A DNA stretch of 64,000 nt, from the NCBI GenBank assembly GCA_040752575.1, contig JBFMGK010000067.1:1931-65930 (forward strand), read 5' to 3'. The notes beneath the pieces are model-generated. The model searched no databases. It had not been told where the DNA came from and saw only the letters and a list, made by a program, of their open reading frames with translations. The position numbers and the translations under genes are program-made. Origin of the DNA: Candidatus Bipolaricaulota bacterium (GTDB lineage: Bacteria; Bipolaricaulota; Bipolaricaulia; UBA7950; UBA9294). This document shows positions 54,559-63,942 of this stretch, piece after piece (within the stretch, counting starts at the first letter, position 1; each line of letters opens with the position of its first letter).

Positions 54559-55860
54559 CTAGGAACCCGCATCCAGGGGCAGCCGCGGCGTGTGATCGAC
54601 GGGCGCGAGCTCCGGCAAGTCTCTCTCCGCCGCAGTCACGTCCTTGAGTCGCTTCGCCGCAGGAAGGAGTCGTGTCTCAAGCGACGCCACCGCCTTGTTG
54701 TACGACTCGACGCACTTGTCCAGGTGCCGGCCAACGTCGCCGATCGGCACGAGAACGTTGACCACACGGTCGTGCAGTTCTCTCCCCTGCTCGGCAATCG
54801 CCTGAGCGTTCTCGGCAACGTGCAGTTGATCCCAGCCGAAGGCGACGGTACGCAGGAGCGCGTACAGCGTGATGGGTGAGGCGAAGAGAACCTTCTGCTT
54901 GAGCCCATGCTCCAGCAGTTCGGGATCCTCCTCGAACGCGGCGGACAGGGCGGACTCCATGGGCACGAACATGACGACGAGCTGGGGGCTTTGCGCGCCG
55001 AACTGGTTCCAGTACTGCTTCTTCGCGAGTTCGTGGATGCGCGCGCGCGTCGCCTTCACGTGTTCTACCAGCTTCGCGCGACGCATGTCGCCCTCGAGCT
55101 GCATCGCCTCCAGATAGGAGGCCGCGGAGACCTTCGCGTCGACGGGCAGGATCCCGCCGCTCGGCATGCGGATGACCATGTCCGGCCTGCCCTCCTCGGT
55201 CGCAGCCTGCTCGTCGAAGTCGATGTGTTCCTCCATCCCCGCCAGTTCAGCGATCCGGCGAAGCTGCAGTTCGCCCCAGCGGCCTCGTGCGGTCGACGAC
55301 TTCATCGCCTGGGAGAGCGTCGTGGTCGTGCTCTGGAGCTGCGATTGCGCGGCGACCAGGCTCGCAACGTGCTGTTCGATCGAGCCGTAGGCTCTCTGAC
55401 GCTTCTCCTCCATCGCCTTGATCTCGCGGTCAAGCGTCTGGAGCGTTGTCTCAAGCGGCGCGACCAGGCCGCGGAGTTCCTCCCTCTGAGTTCCCCAGTC
55501 TGTCTTGACGGCGACCAGGAGCCCGGACAACTCGGCGCGCGACCGGTTGAGGAGTTCCTCGGCATTCGTCGTGAGGGCCTGCGCAGCGAGCGCCGTGAAG
55601 GTCTCGCGAAGCGTCTCCTGCGCGCGGTCGACCCACGCGACGCGGTCGCCGGCCGCCGAACGCTCCGCCTCGGATCGAGCCGCGGCGACTCGCAGTTTCT
55701 CGACCTCGCCCCGCAAGGGCTCAAGCTCGGCGGCGGCCGCGGACCGGCTTTCCAGTTCGGCCTCAAGACGGGCCGTGCGCGCCTGCGAGCGCGCCGCGGC
55801 CACGAAAGCCCCTGCCGTGGCGCCGATCACCAGCCCAAGAACGAGGAAGATCCAGTCCAT
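54559..55860 (-). CDS. rmuC: DNA recombination protein RmuC
   Basis: 433 aa. N-terminal TM, long coiled-coil and a conserved C-terminal RmuC region. Confidence 0.85.
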   Translation of the reverse strand: MDWIFLVLGLVIGATAGAFVAAARSQARTARLEAELESRSAAAAELEPLRGEVEKLRVAAARSEAERSAAGDRVAWVDRAQETLRETFTALAAQALTTNAEELLNRSRAELSGLLVAVKTDWGTQREELRGLVAPLETTLQTLDREIKAMEEKRQRAYGSIEQHVASLVAAQSQLQSTTTTLSQAMKSSTARGRWGELQLRRIAELAGMEEHIDFDEQAATEEGRPDMVIRMPSGGILPVDAKVSAASYLEAMQLEGDMRRAKLVEHVKATRARIHELAKKQYWNQFGAQSPQLVVMFVPMESALSAAFEEDPELLEHGLKQKVLFASPITLYALLRTVAFGWDQLHVAENAQAIAEQGRELHDRVVNVLVPIGDVGRHLDKCVESYNKAVASLETRLLPAAKRLKDVTAAERDLPELAPVDHTPRLPLDAGS

Positions 55861-55946: not shown

Positions 55947-57002
55947 TTAGTCGCTCCCGCGACTCTCCGCCGGGAAGTCCGCGCCGCCCTGCAGGTCGAT
56001 CTCGCCGGACTCTCCCGTCGTTCCACGGAGCACAAGCCCGCGAACGCCATCCACGCGAAGCAGAGCGTAGTCGGGATCCTCCGCGCCTCCCGGCCAATCG
56101 TCTCGCCACTCCTCGCGCCAGGCCCGTCGCGTGCGCGCGACGTCCGGCTCGAGGACGGCGCGGCCATGGAGCGAGGCGTAGTTGAACCTCTCGTTGTCGA
56201 CGAATAGGAGCGTTACTTGCGGGTGGGCTGCTACCTGCGCGACCTTCTGCGAACTTCGGGATGTGGGGAACCACAGCGTGGCTCCCTCGCGATCGACAAT
56301 CCTCATCGGCCGCGCGGTCGGGAAACCGTCCTCACCCAGGGTCACCAGCAAAGGAAACGTCATCGCATTGACCACGGCCCAGAAGGCCTCCGAGGCGCTC
56401 TCGCGGCTTTTCGGTGCCGGGTCCGGGGTCTGAATGATGTCGGCTCCGTCGATGGAGAACGAATGAACCACGCGGTCGACAAGCTCCGTGCGGACGAGGA
56501 GCACCGCCACGGCGGTCGACTGCAGAACCCGGCGAAGCGTCGCTGCATGCCCTCCACCGTCCAGTTCCCAGCGACCGATCTCGTCCACGACGACGACCTC
56601 CGCCTTGTCAAGGGCCCCTTGCAGTGCCCGGCGCGCGAACTCCAACCCGCTCTCTCGGACGAAGAAGCGACCCACGGGGATTCCCGGGGGAGAGGTGCGG
56701 GCGAAGGGCACGTCTTCGCCGCTCATCAGATCCAGCGCGTTGTACCCCGTGGTCTGCCCGCGATCGAGGAGGCGCGGCGCAAGCACCCCCCCGACCGGCG
56801 TTCCGTTCGCGCGGAGTTGCTGCACCAATCGCAGAGCGGCGGCCGTCTTCCCCGCCCCGATCTCCCCCGCGAGGATCACCGCGCGCCCGGGGCGCCGCCC
56901 CCGGTCGCCACGGAGTTGGTTCAGCACGGCAGCGTAGAGATCGGAGTCCAGGGCGTCTCTCCACGCGTTGCGGCGCTTCGGCGCGTGCGGCGAGGGATTC
57001 AA
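55947..57002 (-). CDS. fusion protein: THEP1/NTPase_1-like P-loop NTPase plus PNPOx-like FMN-binding split-barrel domain
   Basis: N-terminal domain with P-loop AGEIGAGKT and Walker B VVVDEIGRWE. C-terminal ~150 aa has the pyridoxamine-5'-phosphate-oxidase-like / general stress protein 26 pattern. ATGA overlap with the upstream PLP-enzyme gene. Confidence 0.6.
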   Translation of the reverse strand: MNPSPHAPKRRNAWRDALDSDLYAAVLNQLRGDRGRRPGRAVILAGEIGAGKTAAALRLVQQLRANGTPVGGVLAPRLLDRGQTTGYNALDLMSGEDVPFARTSPPGIPVGRFFVRESGLEFARRALQGALDKAEVVVVDEIGRWELDGGGHAATLRRVLQSTAVAVLLVRTELVDRVVHSFSIDGADIIQTPDPAPKSRESASEAFWAVVNAMTFPLLVTLGEDGFPTARPMRIVDREGATLWFPTSRSSQKVAQVAAHPQVTLLFVDNERFNYASLHGRAVLEPDVARTRRAWREEWRDDWPGGAEDPDYALLRVDGVRGLVLRGTTGESGEIDLQGGADFPAESRGSD

Positions 57003-58474
57003 CGCGAGAGCTCCTTCAGCAGGCCGACGTCATCGTTGAACGATGCGATGGCTTCGTCGATCGCCGGGACCATCTCGTGGATTCGCTCCCAGTAGCCGGG
57101 GAAATCGTTCCACTGAGCGTTGAGTTCTTCGACGGACCTCCCCATCTGCTCCACCCACGTGAAGTACTTCAGCTGATGGATCCGTCGGCGATCCGCCTGA
57201 CGGAGTTCCAGAACGTGGTCAGTGCCCTGCCCGCGCAGTCGGGCGTGGAAGTCGAGGACGGCATTGCGCTCCGCGTACGGTCCGTGCAAGGCGTCCAGCT
57301 CGGCGATACGCGTGCGATAGAGCTCCATCGAGTCGGTCATCACGGTGAGGACAATGTCGCCGGCTCCGAGTTCGTAGTACTTCGCGAACTTGATCGCGGA
57401 CAGAAGATTCGCAACGCTGGAGATGCCCAACAGGTCGAGTTGCTCAACCAGGGGTTCCGGGACGCCTTCGCGAACGAGGAATTGCCTTCCAAGAGGCTCG
57501 TTGAACAGGCGGAGGAGCGCCATCGCATCGTCATCGTCGATGGCCATGACCATGTCGGTGTTTCGCACGTTGTGGATCCAAGGAATATGCTTGTCTCCGA
57601 TTCCCTCGATACGGTGCGCGCCGAAGCCGTTCTCCAACAGCGTGGGACACTGCAGCGCTTCCGAGACGGCCAACTTGCTCGCCGGGAACCGCTGCTTCAG
57701 GAAGTCCCCGCAGCCGGTCGTTCCGGCCGATCCCGAGGTCAGGACGACGCCGGCGTAGCTGCCCCGATGCCCCTGCGCCTCGATAACGTCGGCCATGGCG
57801 TGGCCGGTCACGTCGTAGTGCCAAAGGTGGTTTCCCGGTTCGTCGAATTGGTTGAAGATGTAGACGTTCTCGCGCGTTGCCTGGAGTTCCTTGCACTTCT
57901 GGAAGATCTCCCAGACATTCGACTCGGATCCCGGCGTGGCGATGACTTCACCTGCAACCTGCGACAGCCACTCGAACCGCTCGCGCGACATCCCCTGCGG
58001 GAGGATGGCGATGGACTCGCAGGCCAACAGGTTCGCGTCGTAGGCTCCGCCGCGGCAGTAGTTTCCCGTCGAGGGCCAGACGGCCTTGTGGAAGGTCGGG
58101 TCGAACTGACCGGTGACGAGCCTTGGAACCAAGCAGCCAAACGTAGCGCCCACTTTGTGCGCTCCCGTGGGGAACCACTTTCCGACGAGCGCGATGATCC
58201 GCGCAGGCACCCCCGTAAGCTCCTCCGGGAACTCGAGGGTATTGACGCCGCCGAATCCGCCGCCTCGCTGGACGGGCTCGTTCTTCCACGTGATGCGGAA
58301 CAGGTTCAGCGGATGGAGATCCCACAGGCCGATGGCGGCGAGACGCTCGACGATGGCGGGGGGAATCTGCGCCGGTTCCTTCATCTGCGCGAACGTGGGG
58401 ATGATGATCCCCCTCTCGCGCGCCCGTCGAACGGCCCGCTCCCTTGGTTCACGTCGCACCTCTAGATCGATCAT
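56999..58474 (-). CDS. fold-type II (TrpB-like) PLP-dependent enzyme
   Basis: Start at MIDLEVRREP with GAGGGAGG 6 nt upstream. TrpB-type lysine motif PTGAHK. Glycine-rich phosphate loop TSGSAGTTG. ~490 aa with N- and C-terminal extensions beyond a minimal TrpB/CysK core. Confidence 0.65.
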   Translation of the reverse strand: MIDLEVRREPRERAVRRARERGIIIPTFAQMKEPAQIPPAIVERLAAIGLWDLHPLNLFRITWKNEPVQRGGGFGGVNTLEFPEELTGVPARIIALVGKWFPTGAHKVGATFGCLVPRLVTGQFDPTFHKAVWPSTGNYCRGGAYDANLLACESIAILPQGMSRERFEWLSQVAGEVIATPGSESNVWEIFQKCKELQATRENVYIFNQFDEPGNHLWHYDVTGHAMADVIEAQGHRGSYAGVVLTSGSAGTTGCGDFLKQRFPASKLAVSEALQCPTLLENGFGAHRIEGIGDKHIPWIHNVRNTDMVMAIDDDDAMALLRLFNEPLGRQFLVREGVPEPLVEQLDLLGISSVANLLSAIKFAKYYELGAGDIVLTVMTDSMELYRTRIAELDALHGPYAERNAVLDFHARLRGQGTDHVLELRQADRRRIHQLKYFTWVEQMGRSVEELNAQWNDFPGYWERIHEMVPAIDEAIASFNDDVGLLKELSR

Positions 58475-58486
58475 CCCTTGCCTCCC

Positions 58487-58508
58487 TCGCAGCTTCGGCC
58501 CGCCTGCG
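58487..58508. promoter_or_regulatory. palindrome CGCAG-N11-CTGCG in divergent intergenic region
   Basis: Lies between the divergently transcribed PLP-enzyme and hydantoinase genes. Its GCAG...CTGC half-sites resemble the repeats upstream of arcC. Confidence 0.3.
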
Positions 58509-58592
58509 TCAACACACATTGAGGCCGCTCGACGTTCATGCTATCATGCAGTCAGACCGGTTCGCAAGACGGCCAAGGGAAGGGAACGGAAC

Positions 58593-59963
58593 GTGCAGGC
58601 TGAGCTCGCCATACGCGGGGGCACCGTCGTCACGCCGTGGGCGGCGTTCACGTCGGACGTCGCGATCGAAGGTGGACGTATTGCGGCCGTCGGAGACCAC
58701 CAGCGAGGGCGGCGCGAGATCGACGCCACGGGGATGCTCGTCCTGCCGGGAGCGATCGACGCGCACACACACATGGCCGCCCCCGTGGCCGGTCAACGCT
58801 CAAGCGACGACTTCCTTTCGGGATCGCGTGCCGCGGCGAGCGGCGGCGTCACGACAATCATCGACTTCACGGCAGGCTCTCCCGAACGTTCGATTCCCGA
58901 GGCGATCGAGGCGCGCGAACGCGATGCCGCACCCTGTATTGTTGACTACGCTTTGCACGGAGAGGTCGTGGGATGGACGCCCGGTCGCGAAAGCGAGTTC
59001 GGGGACGCGGTCGAGCTCGGGGTGGCGAGCTTCAAGTTCTACACAACGTATGAGTCGTCTGGGTTGAGGACGCCGCCGGACATCATGGCGCCTGCCTTCC
59101 GTGAGCTGGCGTTTCTTGGCGCGATCGCCCTCGTGCACGCCGAAGACGAGGGGCTTCTGCGCTCCATGGCCGCCCGGCTGAACGAAGCGGACCGCGGCCG
59201 CATGGCGACGCTGGCCGAGGCTCGCCCGGATCTGGCCGAAGCCGCCGCCATTTCTCAGGTCGGACGTCTGGCCCGCGACGCAGGCTGTCGACTCCACATC
59301 GTCCATGTGAGCTCGGCAGCAGGCCTCAGCGCCGTTCGCGCCGCGCGCGCTGCAGGCGGCCGGCTCACGGCCGAGACGTGCCCGCAGTATCTCCTGCTCA
59401 CGCGCGATGTGTACGACCTGCCCGACGGACACCTCTTCGCCGTCATGCCGCCGCTGCGACGCGCGGAGGACCGTCGCACTCTCTGGTCCGGACTCGCGCG
59501 GCGCGACCTGGACTTCGTGGCCACGGATCACTGCCCGTTCACCCGCGCGCAGAAGGCGTGGAGAGGAGCGTTCGACCTCGTAGCCTACGGCCTTCCGGGA
59601 GTCGAGACGCTTCTGCCTCTCCTGTTCTCGGAGGGTGTCGCCAAGGGACGTCTCGCCTTGCCCGACGTCGTACGTCTTCTTGCCGAGGGACCGGCGAGAA
59701 CCTACGGCCTCTACCCCGCGAAGGGGAGCCTCGAGGTGGGCGCCGATGCCGATGTCGTGTTGTTCGATCCGGCTGCCGCGTGGACGATCCGGGCGAGCGA
59801 TCTCCATATGGAAACCGACTTCTCGCCGTATGAGGGCTTCGGAGTCACGGGCCGTGTCGTCCGAACCCTCTCGAGAGGCGAAGAGATCTTCCGGGACGGC
59901 GAGATCGTCGCCTCCGCCGGGCGGGGCCACCGTGTGCACACGAAGCCCCTCGAGGTTTTGTGA
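58593..59963 (+). CDS. D-hydantoinase / dihydropyrimidinase-family cyclic amidohydrolase
   Basis: GTG start with GGGAAGGGAA upstream. Metal ligands IDAHTH. Carbamylated-lysine context SFKFYTTY, plus VHAED, HIVHVSS and ATDHCPF. The ORF-track N-terminal extension is rejected. Confidence 0.85.
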   Translation: MQAELAIRGGTVVTPWAAFTSDVAIEGGRIAAVGDHQRGRREIDATGMLVLPGAIDAHTHMAAPVAGQRSSDDFLSGSRAAASGGVTTIIDFTAGSPERSIPEAIEARERDAAPCIVDYALHGEVVGWTPGRESEFGDAVELGVASFKFYTTYESSGLRTPPDIMAPAFRELAFLGAIALVHAEDEGLLRSMAARLNEADRGRMATLAEARPDLAEAAAISQVGRLARDAGCRLHIVHVSSAAGLSAVRAARAAGGRLTAETCPQYLLLTRDVYDLPDGHLFAVMPPLRRAEDRRTLWSGLARRDLDFVATDHCPFTRAQKAWRGAFDLVAYGLPGVETLLPLLFSEGVAKGRLALPDVVRLLAEGPARTYGLYPAKGSLEVGADADVVLFDPAAAWTIRASDLHMETDFSPYEGFGVTGRVVRTLSRGEEIFRDGEIVASAGRGHRVHTKPLEVL

Positions 59964-60018
59964 CGCCCCGGAACCGACGGACGGCTGAGGCCCCGGGATC
60001 CGGGGGCGAGGAGGAAGC

Positions 60019-60727
60019 GGTGCGCTTTCAGAGAGTCCAGCCGAGGAAGGTTTCGGCTATCGCCGCGGAGCAGATCCTCGCCGCGATCGAGCGCGGCGAT
60101 TACCCCGTTGGCAGCCGCCTACCCTCGGAGTTCGATCTGGCGCTCCAGATGGGCGTGAGTCGCCCGTCGATCCGCGAGGCGCTCTCCGCCCTCCAAGCCA
60201 TGGGCGTTGTCGAATCGAAGCCGGGAAGCGGGAACTACATCCTGCGCACCGCTTCGACGGCCGACCAGTTCCATGCCGTCGGACTGATGGAGAGCGAAGC
60301 CAGTTGTCTCGAGGTGATGGACGCCCGGGGCGCGCTCGAACCGGCCGTGGCGGCCCTCGCAGCGCAGAAGGCCGACGAGTCCGCCGTTGTACGGCTTAGG
60401 GAAGCCATTGAACGCATGCGGCAACTCGCGGCAGCGAACGACTTTGAGGCGTACTTCGAGGCAGATCGAGCTTTCCACGAGGAGCTGTCCGCCGGTTCGG
60501 GGAATCCGCTCATCGCATCGGCGCTCGCTCCCCTGATCGCGACGATGGGACAGACCGTCTACCGGAAGTTCACGAGGCACTACTACCTCAAGAATGTGAG
60601 CGATCTCCAGCACGTGGTCGACCTCCATCAGGAGATCCTCGATGCCGTGGAGAAAGCTGACGCCGAAACCGCGCGGGCGAAGATGGAGGAACACTGGGCG
60701 CGCATGCGCGAGATCTGGGAAGCGTAG
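60019..60727 (+). CDS. GntR-family (FadR/FCD subfamily) transcriptional regulator
   Basis: N-terminal winged HTH (LPSEFDLALQMGVSRPSIREAL) and C-terminal all-helical FCD domain. The start is either the GTG at 60019 after GAGGAGGAAG, or the GTG at 59960 overlapping the hydantoinase stop. Confidence 0.8.
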
Positions 60728-60821: not shown

Positions 60822-61775
60822 ATGGCGAGCGAGAAGCAGCTGGTCGTCGTTGCCCTGGGCGGGAATGCCATTCTCCAGCCCGGGCAGCGCGGAACCTTCG
60901 AAGAGCAGATGAAGAACGTCCACCTGACTTGCGAGCAGTTGGCGCACATGGTGGAGTCCGGACGTTACCGAGTCGTGGTGACCCACGGCAACGGGCCGCA
61001 GGTGGGCAACATCCTGCTGCAGAACGAGGTCGGCAAGGAGGTCGCCGCGCCGATGCCGCTGTTTGTCTGCGGAGCCGAGAGCCAGGGGCTTATCGGGTTC
61101 ATGATCCAGCAGAACCTGAGCAACCTTCTTGCCGCCAAAGGGCGCGCGGACATCCCGGTAGCCACCCTGGTAACCCAGGTTGTCGTCGACGCAGACGACG
61201 AAGCCTTCCGTCACCCGACCAAGCCCGTGGGGCCGTTCTACACAGCCGAAGAAGCGAAGCGATTGAGCGAAGAGAAAGGTTACGACGTCAAGGAGGACGC
61301 GGGTCGCGGCTGGCGTCGGGTCGTTGCGTCTCCAGATCCGAAGGAGATCTTCGAGAAGGAGGCCATCCGGCAACTCATTGCCGCTCGCGCGATCGTCATT
61401 GCCTCGGGAGGAGGCGGGATCCCCGTCGTCCGCGAGGACGGGCAATTGCGGGGCGTCGACGCGGTCATCGACAAGGACCTTGCGGGCGAACGGCTTGCCG
61501 CGGATGTCGGCGCATCCATTTTCATGATCCTGACCGACGTCGAGCAGGCGAAGCTCCACCACCGCACGCCGCAGGAGAAGGCGCTCAGCCGCCTCACCGT
61601 GCGCGAGGCGAGTCAGTACCTCGCCGAGGGGCACTTTGCCAAGGGGTCCATGGAGCCGAAGGTCCGCGCCGCGGTCCGTTTCGTCGAGTCGGGAGGAGAG
61701 AAGGCCATCATCACCTCGCTCGACAAGGCCACCGACGCCTTGGAGGGCAAGGCGGGCACGACCATCACACGATAG
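60822..61775 (+). CDS. arcC: carbamate kinase
   Basis: MASEKQLVVVALGGNAI (carbamate-kinase N-terminus). AAK-fold motifs VVTHGNGPQVG and IASGGGGIPV. 317 aa from this start. An in-frame ATG 51 nt upstream lies inside the first repeat copy. Confidence 0.85.
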   Translation: MASEKQLVVVALGGNAILQPGQRGTFEEQMKNVHLTCEQLAHMVESGRYRVVVTHGNGPQVGNILLQNEVGKEVAAPMPLFVCGAESQGLIGFMIQQNLSNLLAAKGRADIPVATLVTQVVVDADDEAFRHPTKPVGPFYTAEEAKRLSEEKGYDVKEDAGRGWRRVVASPDPKEIFEKEAIRQLIAARAIVIASGGGGIPVVREDGQLRGVDAVIDKDLAGERLAADVGASIFMILTDVEQAKLHHRTPQEKALSRLTVREASQYLAEGHFAKGSMEPKVRAAVRFVESGGEKAIITSLDKATDALEGKAGTTITR

Positions 61776-61806: not shown

Positions 61807-62844
61807 ATGTCCAACACCACTCTGAGAGGGCGAGACTTCATCACCTGGCTCGAATTCACGCGCGACGAACTCGAGGCCATGCTGGATACCGCCCACGACC
61901 TGAAGCGGAAGTTCATCCGCCGCGAGCCTCACAAGGTTCTCGACGGCCAGACGCTCCACATGCTCTTCTACAACACGTCCCTGCGGACGCGCAACTCGTT
62001 TGAGGCGGCCATGACGCAGCTCGGCGGGCACGCCCACTTCCTCCAGTCCGACGCCGTCTACACGCCGGCGCTGAAGGGAGACGAGAAGGCCTACAAGACC
62101 GAGCGGATCAGCGACGTTGCCCGCGTATTGGCGGAGATGGGAGATGCCATTGCCATCCGCATCTACGGGAAGTACACCGACTGGAAGTACGGCAAGGGCA
62201 ACCAGATGATCCGCGAGTTCGCGCGCTGGTCAAAGGTCCCGGTGATCAATATGGAAGACGACATGTTCCATCCGTGCCAGGACCTTGCCGACGTCATGAC
62301 CATGCAGGAGAAGCTCGGCCACGACCTCCAGGGCAAGAAGTTCGTGATGAGCTGGGCGTATTCTGGTTCGGTGGAGAAGCCGCTCGCCGTGCCGCAGAGC
62401 TGCATCGTCGCCGCGGCGACCATGGGCATGGACGTTACGCTCGCGCACCCGAAGGGCTTCGATCTTGATCCCAAGGTTGTGCAAGCCACGAAGGATCTTG
62501 CCAAGAAGCACGGCGGCGGATTCAGGATCCTGAACGACATGGAGGAGGCCTTCAAGGGCGCCCACGTCGTGTACCCGAAGGCGTGGACGGTGCAGCCGAC
62601 CGACGGCAAGACGCCGATGGACGCGGAGAAGGCGAAGGCGCTCTTCGAAGCCAACAAACACTGGATCACGACGCAGGAGAAGATGAAGCTCACGAACGAC
62701 GCGATCTACATGCATTGTCTGCCTGCGGACCGAGACATGGAGGTGACCGACGAGGTCATCGACGGCCCCAACTCGGTGATCATCGAGCAGGCAGCCAATC
62801 GGCTGCACGGCCAGAAGGGTATGATGGCCTGCATCATGGCCTAG
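61807..62844 (+). CDS. YgeW-like divergent carbamoyltransferase (aspartate/ornithine carbamoyltransferase superfamily)
   Basis: Carbamoyl-phosphate motifs SLRTR (STRTR-like), HPCQ and HCLP. The second-substrate loop is MSWAYSG rather than OTC SMG. 345 aa. Confidence 0.8.
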   Translation: MSNTTLRGRDFITWLEFTRDELEAMLDTAHDLKRKFIRREPHKVLDGQTLHMLFYNTSLRTRNSFEAAMTQLGGHAHFLQSDAVYTPALKGDEKAYKTERISDVARVLAEMGDAIAIRIYGKYTDWKYGKGNQMIREFARWSKVPVINMEDDMFHPCQDLADVMTMQEKLGHDLQGKKFVMSWAYSGSVEKPLAVPQSCIVAAATMGMDVTLAHPKGFDLDPKVVQATKDLAKKHGGGFRILNDMEEAFKGAHVVYPKAWTVQPTDGKTPMDAEKAKALFEANKHWITTQEKMKLTNDAIYMHCLPADRDMEVTDEVIDGPNSVIIEQAANRLHGQKGMMACIMA

Positions 62845-62916: not shown

Positions 62917-63942
62917 ATGAGTTGGTTCGATCTCGCAGGGCGAGACCTGATCGGGGAGACGGACTGGACTCGCGAGGAGTACAACATCGCGATGAAGGTC
63001 ACCGATCAGCTCAAAGGGGCTTACTACAGCAGGCTTCCTCACCCAACCCTGCAGTACAAGACGTTTGCCATGTTGTTCTTCGCGGGCTCGACGCGAACGC
63101 GGATGTCGTTCGAGACGGCGATGACCCAACTCGGAGGGCACGCCCAGTTCATCGACCCGAAGACCATGCGCCTCTCGCTCGAGGACAAGCCGGGCGCCGG
63201 CGAGACCGTCAAGGACACGGCGGAAGCCATGGAACGCTACTGCGACGGCGTCGGCATTCGGCTCCTCGACGACGCCATCCAGCGATACGGCGAGGCGGAC
63301 GAGGTGATGCAGAAGTTCGCAAAACACTGCCGCGTGCCGATCATCAACATGGCGTCCGACATCTACCACCCGTGCCAATCGCTGACCGACATCTACACGA
63401 TGCACGAGAAGCTTGACGCGGACGTGAAGGGGAAGAAGATCGTGATCATGTGGGCCTGGTCGCCATGGATCCGCGGCTGGTGCTCGGTGCAGGGCACGGC
63501 GCTGATCTCGTCGATGTACGGGATGGACGTCGTCGTGGCGAACCCGCCCGAGTACGACCTCGACCCGAAGATCATGAAGGAGTGCCGCGATCTGGCTACG
63601 GCATCGGGCGGCTCGTTCGAGATCTCGCACGACCTGGACAAGGCGCTTGACGGCGCGACGGTCGTCTTCCCGCGCAACTGGTTCACCAAGGACCGCTACG
63701 CACTGGGAAAGGACAAAGAGGCGGAGATCGCGAAGAAGTACGCGAACTGGAAGTACTCGAGCGAGCGACAGAAGAAACTCGGGGCCCCAGGCTATCTCCT
63801 GCAGTGCATGCCCGTGGATCGCGGCAACGAGGCCGACGCCGAGGTCTGCGACAATCGCCTCTCGTGGATCCTCGATCAGGCGGAGAATCGCCTTCACACG
63901 CAGAAGGCCATTCTTACGCTGACGATGGGAGGACGTCTGTAG
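62917..63942 (+). CDS. YgeW-like divergent carbamoyltransferase, paralog 2
   Basis: Start at MSWFDLAGRDL with GGGAGG upstream. STRTR, HPCQ and a QCMP (HCLP-position) motif. Second-substrate loop IMWAWSPW. 341 aa, alignable with the preceding gene. Confidence 0.8.
   Translation: MSWFDLAGRDLIGETDWTREEYNIAMKVTDQLKGAYYSRLPHPTLQYKTFAMLFFAGSTRTRMSFETAMTQLGGHAQFIDPKTMRLSLEDKPGAGETVKDTAEAMERYCDGVGIRLLDDAIQRYGEADEVMQKFAKHCRVPIINMASDIYHPCQSLTDIYTMHEKLDADVKGKKIVIMWAWSPWIRGWCSVQGTALISSMYGMDVVVANPPEYDLDPKIMKECRDLATASGGSFEISHDLDKALDGATVVFPRNWFTKDRYALGKDKEAEIAKKYANWKYSSERQKKLGAPGYLLQCMPVDRGNEADAEVCDNRLSWILDQAENRLHTQKAILTLTMGGRL

What the first reader, a model, noticed from the sequence alone, without database searches (positions are those of the whole stretch)
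55947..58474. NTPase_1 (THEP1-like) P-loop domain fused to a PNPOx-like FMN-binding domain, co-transcribed with a TrpB-fold PLP enzyme
I do not recall a described fusion of a P-loop NTPase (AGEIGAGKT, DEIGRWE) to a pyridoxamine-5'-phosphate-oxidase-like split-barrel domain. It is translationally coupled (ATGA) to a PLP-dependent enzyme. PNPOx-family proteins make or bind pyridoxal/flavin cofactors, so the pair could be a cofactor-maturation or redox partner of the PLP enzyme. The PLP enzyme itself is unusually long for its fold, with N- and C-terminal extensions.
Basis: partly seen in the sequence, partly recalled or inferred. Interest (0 to 1): 0.55.

Follow-up and report, generated by a model that had tools for sequence, protein, structure and literature searches.

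The report
NTPase–flavin-barrel fusion in purine-breakdown cluster
A real but rare fusion of a small ATP/GTP-hydrolysing domain and a flavin-type binding barrel follows an uncharacterised vitamin-B6 enzyme in an anaerobic purine/ureide breakdown cluster, where it is most likely an optional cofactor-handling helper whose function is still unproven.

Summary
ORF 55947-57002(-) is one uninterrupted 351-aa protein. Residues 42-180 are a THEP1-type NTPase_1 domain and residues 204-321 are a GSP26/COG3871-type PNPOx-like split barrel. Its TTG start overlaps the stop of a 491-aa CysK-like PLP enzyme as TTGA, not ATGA, and an AAGGAG site lies 8 nt upstream.

About 56 full-length fusions exist, nearly all from Bipolaricaulota. 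Split versions with adjacent genes also exist.

The surroundings are a variant of the anaerobic reductive uric-acid (2,8-dioxopurine) cluster: HyuA, two YgeW-like carbamoyltransferases, carbamate kinase and GntR, with a Xdh-like Mo hydroxylase in syntenic loci.

The PLP enzyme is the widespread partner (at least 586 species, 62-78% identity). It sits where YgeX (diaminopropionate ammonia-lyase) is missing, so it probably replaces it.

The fusion is optional. In sister lineages the NTPase overlaps an XdhC chaperone gene. One relative is fused to MobA. In a spirochaete, MocA and XdhC fill the same slot after the PLP gene. My best guess (about 0.35) is a molybdenum-cofactor handling accessory. 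A role as partner of the PLP enzyme (about 0.2) is not excluded.

It is a new variant of known kinds, of moderate interest.

The parts
55947..57002 (-). Fusion gene, 351 aa: THEP1-type NTPase_1 domain plus GSP26-type PNPOx-like split barrel. TTG start.
56418..57002 (-). NTPase_1 half, residues 1-195
56844..56867 (-). Walker A / P-loop, GEIGAGKT, residues 46-53
   Evidence: Read directly from the sequence. G46, G51, K52 and T53 are invariant in 53 homologues.
56565..56597 (-). Walker B with catalytic Glu, VVVVDEIGRWE, residues 136-146
   Evidence: D140, E141, G143 and E146 are invariant.
56394..56447 (-). Inter-domain linker, about residues 186-203
   Evidence: pLDDT falls below 50 at residues 197-200. 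This is the point where split versions separate into two genes.
55983..56393 (-). PNPOx-like split-barrel half, residues 204-340
57011..57016 (-). Shine-Dalgarno AAGGAG, 8 nt upstream of the TTG start, inside the 3' end of the PLP gene
   Evidence: Read directly from the sequence.
56999..57002 (-). TTGA start/stop overlap (translational coupling)
   Evidence: Read directly from the sequence.
56999..58474 (-). 491-aa CysK-like fold-type-II PLP enzyme ('PALP491'), the probable replacement for YgeX
58154..58156 (-). Predicted PLP-binding lysine, K107 in PTGAHKVG
   Evidence: It falls in the PTGAHKVG stretch aligned to the cysteine-synthase segment of 7n2t that I take to hold the PLP-binding lysine (that identification is from memory and lysines are not paired in that alignment). 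Invariant in 57 homologues.
58475..58592 (.). Divergent 118-nt intergenic region between the PLP operon and the hyuA-like operon. It holds a sigma70-like promoter match (TTGAGG-17-TATCAT).
58593..59963 (+). HyuA-like D-hydantoinase/dihydropyrimidinase
   Evidence: 41% identity to E. coli HyuA over 455 aa. TIGR02033 gives 384.6 bits.
59960..60727 (+). GntR/FCD-family regulator
   Evidence: ORF. Syntenic genes carry Pfam GntR and FCD.
60822..61775 (+). Carbamate kinase (YqeA/ArcC type)
   Evidence: TIGR00746 gives 430.9 bits against a cut-off of 358. 49% identity to E. coli YqeA.
61807..62844 (+). Carbamoyltransferase 1 (YgeW/AOTCase-like)
   Evidence: NCBIfam. 37% identity to E. coli YgeW.
62917..63942 (+). 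Carbamoyltransferase 2, a paralogue
54559..55860 (-). RmuC gene, 86 nt downstream. It is syntenic in most fusion loci and is probably not part of the system.

Best explanation
What is shown.
- The gene encodes a genuine two-domain protein: a catalytically intact THEP1-type P-loop NTPase joined to a GSP26/COG3871-type PNPOx-like split barrel.
- It is translationally coupled to a 491-aa CysK-like PLP enzyme.
- The pair lies in a Bipolaricaulota version of the anaerobic purine/ureide catabolic cluster: HyuA, YgeW-like carbamoyltransferases, carbamate kinase and GntR, plus a Xdh-type Mo hydroxylase in syntenic loci.

What is inferred.
1. The PLP enzyme is the conserved catalytic component. It most likely performs the terminal step that YgeX performs in E. 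coli: beta-elimination from 2,3-diaminopropionate, or a closely related beta-substituted alanine, to give pyruvate and ammonia.
2. The NTPase-PNPOx fusion is an optional, lineage-specific accessory. It most likely helps mature or load a cofactor for the cluster's molybdenum hydroxylase.
   - The NTPase would play a MobB/YqeC-like, nucleotide-dependent adaptor role alongside XdhC-type chaperones.
   - The dimeric barrel would hold a phosphorylated tricyclic ligand. That could be FMN for a redox step, or conceivably the pyranopterin itself.
For: Fusion and coupling.

Cluster identity:
- HyuA 41%, YgeW 37% and YqeA 49% identity to the E. coli proteins.
- Syntenic loci add Xdh and a YgeY-like M20 peptidase.
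- The pathway is described in PMC12507026 and bioRxiv 10.1101/2025.04.24.650524.

The PLP enzyme as a YgeX replacement:
- In 84 loci it co-occurs with YgeW (34 loci), YqeA (35), HyuA (31), YgeY (13, up to 69% identity), SsnA (14), Xdh (19-20) and YgfK (3). No YgeX orthologue is present in any of them.
- In Halanaerobiales and Acetomicrobium loci it sits beside E. coli-like ygeY-ygeW.

Link between the NTPase and Mo cofactor:
a) In L015, L017, L123, L127 and L128 an XdhC gene lies directly upstream of the NTPase gene and overlaps or abuts it. In the calls of 42 and 63 the overlap is 4 nt in L015 and L127 and 7 nt in L017. L122 holds an XdhC fragment just upstream. Pfam finds XdhC_CoxI and XdhC_C, and the gene is closest to TIGR02964 xdhC. 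PNPOx follows.
b) P0317 is the same NTPase subfamily fused to a MobA-like cofactor nucleotidyltransferase. Its layout mirrors the known MobB-MobA bifunctional proteins.
c) In spirochaete locus L044 the slot right after the PLP gene holds MocA and XdhC.
d) More distant NTPase relatives lie next to AhtL-like molybdopterin oxidoreductase operons in three different gene arrangements, and next to MocA plus a YgfK-like gene in L131.
e) The known pathway already uses an XdhC-like plus P-loop-like accessory pair, YqeB/YqeC (bioRxiv 10.1101/2025.04.24.650524, section 9).
Against: - In 42 of 44 close loci the gene upstream of the NTPase gene is the PLP gene, directly in about 35 of them and with an XdhC or membrane-protein gene in between in the rest.
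- Some fusion loci show no Xdh gene within 8-10 kb: L003, L007 and L172.
- Many loci have both Xdh and the PLP enzyme but no NTPase or PNPOx. The fusion is therefore dispensable for either enzyme.
- Among distant NTPase loci of at least 5 kb, only 11 of 21 carry a Mo-related gene, and 9 of those 11 come from one lineage. The others sit in housekeeping or ECF-transporter contexts.
- The commonest partner of distant relatives is an uncharacterised 235-aa membrane protein.
- No role for a PNPOx-like barrel in Moco maturation is known.
- The NTPase is not homologous to YqeC beyond the P-loop: hhalign probability 18.6%.
- The MobA fusion is a single representative.
- No biochemical data exist for any member.
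Confidence: 0.35

Rival explanations
1. The fusion is a dedicated partner of the PLP enzyme. It would supply, recycle or repair the B6 cofactor, with the PNPOx-like barrel binding PNP, PLP or FMN and the NTPase driving loading. Alternatively it would act as a regulatory or redox subunit of the 491-aa enzyme.
For: - The PLP gene lies upstream in 42 of 44 close loci, and the gap or overlap is 23 nt or less wherever genes were called.
- The module stays next to the PLP gene even where no Xdh gene is in view: L003, L007 and L172.
- E. coli and human PNPOx structures with bound PLP are among the structural neighbours of the barrel.
Against: - At least 586 species carry the PLP enzyme at 62-78% identity without this partner.
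- XdhC or a membrane-protein gene can be inserted between the two, and the NTPase gene then overlaps or abuts the inserted gene instead.
- XdhC-NTPase-PNPOx occurs with no PLP gene in the roughly 0.3-0.4 kb available upstream, in L127 and L128.
- The barrel fails the pdxH model (16.6 bits against 180) and is closest to GSP26 proteins, for which I know of no demonstrated PNP oxidase activity (own knowledge).
Confidence: 0.22
2. The fusion is a redox component of the pathway. The flavin-binding barrel would act as a reductase or electron-transfer partner. It could stand in for the dearomatising reductase (YgfK/UacX), or for the Fe-S and FAD subunits missing next to the lone Xdh large subunit. 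The NTPase would gate or activate that step.
For: - Fusion-type clusters show a lone 756-763-aa Mo-binding subunit and no YgfK, UacX, Fe-S or FAD genes within 10 kb.
- NCBIfam's second-best match for the barrel is the F420-dependent PPOX class, TIGR03618, E=6.5e-13.
- F420 and FMN reductases are structural neighbours: 4qvb, 3f7e and 5jab.
- PMC12507026 notes that the reductase step has been replaced by non-homologous enzymes in other phyla.
Against: - TIGR03618 scores 49 bits against a cut-off of 79.
- Split-form loci L099 and L114 carry the NTPase next to XdhB, Fe-S and YgfK-like genes, so there it is not a substitute for them.
- I know of no P-loop NTPase of this type that gates flavin reduction.
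- This reading does not explain the XdhC coupling or the MobA fusion.
Confidence: 0.15
3. The NTPase subfamily is a general micronutrient or cofactor trafficking ATPase that works with a membrane uptake component. In this lineage the barrel would be the cytosolic acceptor, and the link to the cluster would be supply of some vitamin or metal rather than Moco specifically.
For: - A 235-aa polytopic membrane protein lies directly upstream of the NTPase in 19 loci or is fused to it in 15. This includes L098 and L099, where it sits between the PLP gene and the NTPase gene.
- In L170 the NTPase follows an ECF-type module of two ABC_tran domains plus CbiQ.
Against: - The membrane family has no Pfam, NCBIfam or PDB match, so its transport role is a guess.
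- The window itself has no such membrane gene next to the fusion.
- I know of no precedent for an NTPase_1 domain energising transport.
Confidence: 0.1
4. There is no functional link. The fusion would be a general stress or housekeeping protein kept beside the PLP gene by lineage synteny alone, as the downstream rmuC gene probably is.
For: - rmuC is also syntenic in most fusion loci.
- The fusion is confined to one clade, with only 3-4 representatives at 50% identity among 1.84 billion proteins.
- GSP26-type proteins are annotated as stress proteins.
Against: - Start/stop overlap and an SD site inside the upstream gene argue for coupled expression.
- The NTPase-PNPOx pairing survives fusion, fission and insertion of XdhC or membrane-protein genes across loci that are only 41-54% identical.
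- Neighbouring genes on the other side vary between loci while this pair stays.
Confidence: 0.08

Closest known systems
THEP1 (Aquifex aeolicus aq_1292, PDB 1ye8) and human NTPCR (2i3b); Pfam NTPase_1 PF03266
   Different: It fails the NCBIfam THEP1 equivalog cut-off, 76.6 bits against 156. It belongs to a distinct subfamily with its own motifs (GGVLAPR, TxGY, VGRFF). It is fused to a split barrel. THEP1 and NTPCR themselves have no established cellular function (PMC1079890).
General stress protein 26 / COG3871 PNPOx-like split barrels (PDB 2fhq, 2i02, 2hq7, 3ec6, 3u34)
   Different: The known members are stand-alone proteins of about 130-160 aa. This one is the C-terminal domain of an NTPase. 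It is not a PdxH-type PNP oxidase and does not reach the cut-off for the F420 PPOX class.
Molybdenum-cofactor accessory proteins: the MobB-MobA bifunctional proteins, XdhC, and the YqeB/YqeC pair of the E. coli purine cluster
   Same: The working analogy is a small P-loop protein acting beside an XdhC-type chaperone or a cofactor nucleotidyltransferase, in a cluster with a Xdh-family enzyme. The supporting cases are XdhC genes that overlap or abut the NTPase gene, and an NTPase-MobA fusion.
   Different: There is no homology to YqeC beyond the P-loop (hhalign probability 18.6%), and only a P-loop match to MobB (E=0.015). Those systems have no PNPOx-like component. The window itself has no XdhC, MocA or YqeB gene.
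YgeX/DpaL 2,3-diaminopropionate ammonia-lyase, compared with the neighbouring 491-aa PLP enzyme
   Same: Both are fold-type-II PLP enzymes. Both occupy the same place in the same kind of gene cluster.
E. coli ygeW-ygeX-ygeY-hyuA-yqeA / xdhD-ygfK-ssnA reductive uric-acid (2,8-dioxopurine) pathway
   Same: HyuA, YgeW-like and YqeA homologues lie in the window. Xdh, YgeY, SsnA and YgfK homologues lie in related loci.
   Different: Here there are two carbamoyltransferase paralogues instead of YgeW plus YgeY. YgeX is replaced. No SsnA or YgfK gene is in the window. A GntR regulator replaces the sigma54-dependent YgeV. The NTPase-PNPOx gene is an addition.

Membership tests
NTPase_1 / THEP1 family (PF03266) | Profile match above Pfam's gathering score | tested here: met
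   78.3 bits against 23.9, E=8e-22, residues 42-180.
NTPase_1 / THEP1 family (PF03266) | Walker A GxxxxGK[ST], and Walker B hhhhDE with the DEIG motif | tested here: met
   GEIGAGKT at residues 46-53 and VVVDEIGRWE at 137-146, invariant in 53 homologues.
NTPase_1 / THEP1 family (PF03266) | RecA-like fold of THEP1 | tested here: met
NTPase_1 / THEP1 family (PF03266) | Equivalog of archaeal/Aquifex THEP1 (NCBIfam PRK13695) | tested here: not met
   76.6 bits against a cut-off of 156. It is a separate subfamily.
NTPase_1 / THEP1 family (PF03266) | ATP/GTP hydrolysis | not testable with these tools
   The catalytic motifs are intact. This needs an enzyme assay.
PNPOx-like FMN-binding split barrel (PF16242 / PF01243), GSP26/COG3871 subgroup | Profile match above the gathering score | tested here: met
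   PF16242 68.5 bits against 28.8. PF01243 58 bits against 28.1.
PNPOx-like FMN-binding split barrel (PF16242 / PF01243), GSP26/COG3871 subgroup | Split-barrel fold | tested here: met
PNPOx-like FMN-binding split barrel (PF16242 / PF01243), GSP26/COG3871 subgroup | Bound flavin (FMN or FAD) | not testable with these tools
   R231, S248, S251 and K253 are invariant and align with a motif shared with 2i02. That they bind the FMN phosphate is an inference from family knowledge.
True pyridoxamine-5'-phosphate oxidase (PdxH) | Match to the pdxH equivalog models | tested here: not met
   TIGR00558 16.6 bits against 180. NF004231 17.4 bits against 129.
F420-dependent PPOX-class oxidoreductases (TIGR03618, Rv1155 type) | Match above the subfamily cut-off | tested here: not met
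   49 bits against 79.05.
YqeC (PF19842), selenium/Mo-hydroxylase accessory protein | Homology to YqeC | tested here: not met
   hhalign probability 18.6%, in the P-loop region only. No NCBIfam or Pfam YqeC hit.
Fold-type-II PLP enzymes (PF00291), for the neighbouring 491-aa enzyme | Profile match, conserved Schiff-base lysine and substrate-carboxylate loop | tested here: met
   PALP 50.4 bits against 35. K107 in PTGAHKVG and the STGNY loop fall in stretches aligned to cysteine synthase 7n2t. They are invariant in 57 sequences.
Cysteine synthase CysK/CysM | Equivalog cut-off | tested here: not met
   TIGR01139 91.4 bits against 350.95. TIGR01138 26.4 bits against 394.
Diaminopropionate ammonia-lyase (YgeX/DpaL) | Orthology to YgeX | tested here: not met
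Reductive uric-acid / 2,8-dioxopurine gene cluster | HyuA, YgeW-type carbamoyltransferase and YqeA carbamate kinase | tested here: met
   41%, 37% and 49% identity to the E. coli proteins. Carbamate kinase is above the TIGR00746 cut-off.
Reductive uric-acid / 2,8-dioxopurine gene cluster | SsnA, a YgfK/UacX reductase and XdhD inside the cluster | tested here: inconclusive
   None lies in the 64-kb window. A Xdh large subunit lies just beyond the second carbamoyltransferase in syntenic loci. SsnA and YgfK are seen only in loci of other phyla.
Known anti-phage defence systems (PADLOC) | Any model match for the fusion or the PLP enzyme | tested here: not met
   No hits. Only the downstream RmuC gene matches the RTasRmuC model.

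The most novel reading that the evidence does not exclude
This NTPase_1 (THEP1/NTPCR) subfamily is a previously unrecognised class of nucleotide-dependent cofactor-insertion factors for pterin (Mo/W) enzymes. It would work with XdhC or MobA, and in this lineage with a PNPOx-like barrel that carries the pyranopterin or a flavin. If so, it would give the first physiological role to a protein family that extends to human NTPCR. Alongside this, the 491-aa CysK-like enzyme would be a new, widespread terminal lyase of anaerobic purine degradation.
Probability: 0.25. Interest if true: 0.7.

Novelty: new variant of a known kind. Interest (0 to 1): 0.48.

Why it matters
The anaerobic uric-acid (2,8-dioxopurine) pathway was only worked out in 2025. 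It bears on gut urate disposal and on nitrogen cycling in anoxic sediments.

This locus points to three things:
1. Bipolaricaulota, Chloroflexota, Halanaerobiales, Synergistales and even Thorarchaeota MAGs carry cluster variants in which YgeX is replaced. The replacement is a strongly conserved, uncharacterised 491-aa PLP enzyme found in at least 586 species.
2. Some lineages probably cleave both ureido groups by phosphorolysis. That could yield two carbamoyl phosphates, and so two ATP.
3. A THEP1-type NTPase, a family with no known physiological role, is repeatedly tied to XdhC, MobA, a PNPOx-like barrel and an unknown membrane protein.

The third point makes the function of that NTPase family directly testable in a defined metabolic setting.

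Tried and rejected
- Looking up the window's own fusion protein in the contig index failed; it is not on record. Homologues were used instead.
- A word-indexed search with the NTPase half alone returned only 12 hits, one of them new.
- The context of stand-alone NTPase P0329 showed no purine or Mo genes. The context of the 578-aa P0058 was equivocal.
- YqeC homology was rejected: hhalign probability 18.6%.
- The membrane-partner family gave no Pfam, NCBIfam or PDB match.
- A defence-system reading was rejected: no PADLOC hit for the fusion or the PLP enzyme.
- The AFDB50 fold library was unavailable.
- I considered OrtB (2-amino-4-ketopentanoate thiolase) as the identity of the long PLP enzyme, from memory. 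No OrtB-named NCBIfam model appeared among the hits, so I dropped it as untestable here.
- I considered the PLP enzyme as a sulfur or selenium donor for Moco, analogous to NifS4 with XdhC. I ranked this below the YgeX replacement, because it would leave most clusters without any diaminopropionate-consuming enzyme. The five invariant cysteines keep it open.
- Literature searches for the fusion, for DUF2478, and for Bipolaricaulota purine or hydantoinase clusters found nothing relevant.
- My first crude GC3-based gene caller mis-picked antisense ORFs and was not used for any conclusion.


Full report
**1. Observation**

On the minus strand, ORF 56999-58519 was listed at 506 aa, and ORF 55947-57002 at 351 aa follows it.

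The 351-aa protein scores well on both halves:
- Pfam NTPase_1: E=8e-22, 78.3 bits against a cut-off of 23.9, residues 42-180.
- Pyrid_ox_like: E=5.9e-19, residues 204-321.
- PNPOx_N: E=1.5e-15.

The PDB sequence search gives COG3871 general-stress-protein barrels (2i02, E=2e-12) for the C-terminal half, and human NTPCR 2i3b for the N-terminal half.

Walker A (GEIGAGKT) and Walker B with its catalytic Glu (DEIG) are invariant in the family.

AAGGAG lies 8 nt upstream.

The PLP enzyme really starts at the ATG at 58474 and is 491 aa. Homologues start with the same MIDL. No terminator-like site separates the PLP gene, the fusion gene and rmuC.

**2. The fusion is real but rare**

There are 56 full-length homologues at 46-62% identity, almost all from metagenomes or Bipolaricaulota MAGs. 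The window's own protein is an NCBI record from a Candidatus Bipolaricaulota MAG.

An exhaustive HMMER search of 1.84 billion representatives at 50% identity found only 3-4 fused representatives. It also found many stand-alone NTPases (170-220 aa, 40-50% identity) and stand-alone barrels (about 138 aa).

Across 44 loci whose NTPase is at least 41% identical to the window's, 27 are fused and 10 are split into adjacent genes. One split example is the complete genome CP070725.1, where the two genes overlap by 4 nt. The two domains therefore form a stable functional pair that has been joined or separated more than once.

**3. Context**

Syntenic loci show this order:
- On one strand: Xdh-type Mo-binding subunit, one or two OTCase-like genes (with an M20 peptidase in some loci), carbamate kinase, GntR/FCD and a hydantoinase-type amidohydrolase.
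- Divergently: the PLP enzyme, the fusion and RmuC.

In the window, identity to the E. coli proteins is 41% for HyuA, 37% and 30% for YgeW (the two paralogues), and 49% for YqeA. The carbamate kinase passes the NCBIfam equivalog cut-off.

These are the genes of the reductive uric-acid (2,8-dioxopurine) pathway. In that pathway urate is converted through 2,3-diureidopropionate to 2,3-diaminopropionate, and YgeX cleaves the latter to pyruvate (PMC12507026; bioRxiv 10.1101/2025.04.24.650524).

**4. The PLP enzyme is the widespread component**

More than 120 clusters share 72-78% identity with it, and mean column identity in the alignments is 80-82%.

A scan of one genome per species found at least 586 species. 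They include Bipolaricaulota, Anaerolineae/Chloroflexota, Halanaerobiales, Atribacterota, Spirochaetota, Synergistales and Thorarchaeota, at 62-75% identity.

In 84 loci it co-occurs with the following homologues:

| Homologue | Loci |
|---|---|
| YgeW | 34 |
| YqeA | 35 |
| HyuA | 31 |
| YgeY (up to 69% identity) | 13 |
| SsnA | 14 |
| Xdh | 19-20 |
| YgfK | 3 |

Nucleoside ABC transporter genes are also present. No YgeX orthologue is present in any of the 84 loci. The only YgeX hits are weak partial matches to a ThrC-like 424-aa PLP enzyme found mainly in Chloroflexi.

I infer that it has replaced YgeX without being its orthologue. This is inference only; nothing has been assayed.

**5. What the fusion does**

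*For a link to the PLP enzyme.* The PLP gene lies upstream of the NTPase gene in 42 of 44 close loci, directly in about 35 of them, and the spacing is tight where it is direct.

*Against that link being specific.*
- The PLP enzyme almost always occurs without the fusion.
- In L015, L017 and L123 an XdhC gene lies between the two (Pfam XdhC_CoxI and XdhC_C; closest to TIGR02964). It overlaps the NTPase gene by 4 nt in L015 and 7 nt in L017, and PNPOx follows.
- L127 and L128 carry XdhC-NTPase-PNPOx with no PLP gene in the short stretch (about 0.3-0.4 kb) available upstream.
- In L098, L099 and L104 a 235-aa membrane-protein gene is inserted between the two instead.
- In spirochaete locus L044 the slot after the PLP gene holds MocA and XdhC.

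*Further hints of a molybdenum-cofactor link.*
- One representative, P0317, joins the same NTPase subfamily to a MobA-like molybdenum-cofactor nucleotidyltransferase. Its layout mirrors the known MobB-MobA proteins.
- More distant relatives lie beside AhtL-type molybdopterin oxidoreductase operons in three different arrangements, and beside MocA plus a YgfK-like gene.
- The known pathway already depends on an XdhC-like plus P-loop-like accessory pair, YqeB/YqeC (bioRxiv 10.1101/2025.04.24.650524).

From these I favour a Moco or cofactor-handling accessory role, at about 0.35.

*Caveats.*
- Some fusion loci show no Xdh gene in view.
- Only 11 of 21 long distant loci carry Mo-related genes, and 9 of those 11 come from one lineage.
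- Other distant relatives sit in housekeeping or ECF-transporter contexts.
- There is no homology to YqeC beyond the P-loop.
- No role for a PNPOx-like barrel in Moco maturation is known.

The rivals are a partner of the PLP enzyme (about 0.22), a pathway redox component (about 0.15), a trafficking ATPase working with a membrane partner (about 0.10), and mere synteny (about 0.08).

**6. Comparison and novelty**

Each domain is a clear member of its Pfam family. Neither reaches any NCBIfam equivalog cut-off: THEP1 PRK13695, pdxH, or the F420 PPOX class.

The fusion is annotated in databases. No paper found here describes it, DUF2478, or the Bipolaricaulota cluster.

I rate it a new variant of known kinds. 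Interest is moderate for the fusion itself. The more consequential by-products are the 491-aa PLP family as the probable terminal lyase of a widespread pathway variant, and a testable handle on the orphan THEP1/NTPCR family.

Noticed in passing
L099:7342-8061, L098:471-1184, L132:7285-7986; fused forms L156:6651-8681 and L131:159-1925: A polytopic membrane protein family of about 235 aa, with the conserved motif FGSxWGxxEAxxGGxLH, has no Pfam, NCBIfam or PDB match. It lies directly upstream of relatives of this NTPase in 19 loci and is fused to them in 15 loci as proteins of about 580 aa. In L098 and L099 it sits between the PLP gene and the NTPase gene.
   Followed up: partly
L036:3034-4317 (representative); 41 of 84 loci with the 491-aa PLP enzyme: A second PLP enzyme of about 424 aa lies about 1 kb upstream of the 491-aa PLP gene on the same strand, mostly in Anaerolineae. 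It is ThrC-like (TIGR00260, 193 bits, above the cut-off) and has an N-terminal Cys-rich ribbon. Its role in the cluster is unknown.
   Followed up: partly
L050:12252-12815 (representative); 24 loci: A conserved protein of about 190 aa with no Pfam or NCBIfam match lies immediately downstream of the 491-aa PLP gene in many Chloroflexi loci. This is the position the NTPase-PNPOx gene holds in Bipolaricaulota.
   Followed up: no
window 61807-62844 and 62917-63942: The window has two tandem YgeW/AOTCase-like carbamoyltransferase paralogues (about 40% identical to each other) plus one carbamate kinase. Sister locus L001 has one carbamoyltransferase plus a YgeY-like M20 peptidase. This suggests that both ureido groups are cleaved by phosphorolysis here, which could give two ATP per purine.
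   Followed up: partly
L057, L067, L074: The 491-aa PLP enzyme is found at 64-65% identity on contigs binned as Thorarchaeota (Asgard archaea). This points to inter-domain transfer or to mis-binning.
   Followed up: no
window 56999-58474 (protein positions C114, C140, C152, C194, C276): Five cysteines are invariant across 57 homologues of the PLP enzyme. That is unusual for CysK-like enzymes. They could mark a metal or Fe-S site, or persulfide chemistry.
   Followed up: no
L171:771-3041; also L001, L005, L008: In fusion-type clusters the Xdh-family gene is a lone Mo-binding subunit of 756-763 aa. No [2Fe-2S] subunit, FAD subunit, XdhC or MocA gene lies within 10 kb. Split-type loci L099 and L114 do have XdhB-, Fe-S-, MocA- and YgfK-like genes.
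   Followed up: partly
L003:1092-4855: In one MAG, labelled Thermotogota, two aldehyde:ferredoxin oxidoreductase (tungstopterin) genes and an amidohydrolase take the place of the carbamoyltransferase and carbamate kinase genes. They lie next to hyuA, divergent from the PLP gene and the fusion.
   Followed up: no
window 54559-55860: An RmuC gene follows the fusion 86 nt downstream with no terminator-like site, and is syntenic in most fusion loci. It matches the PADLOC RTasRmuC (DRT) model. In L003 and L004 HicA-type toxin-antitoxin genes are inserted between the fusion and rmuC.
   Followed up: no
L170:5602-8510: A distant NTPase_1 relative directly follows an ECF-type transporter module: a gene with duplicated ABC_tran domains, then a CbiQ T-component.
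   Followed up: no
window 58475-58592: The divergent 118-nt intergenic region holds a sigma70-like promoter match (TTGAGG-17-TATCAT with an extended TG) facing the hyuA-like operon. It is the likely site of GntR control. No operator was searched for.
   Followed up: no
L007:12400-12500: The stored DNA of complete genome CP070725.1 has a run of N just after the split PNPOx gene, so the end of that gene cannot be read reliably.
   Followed up: no
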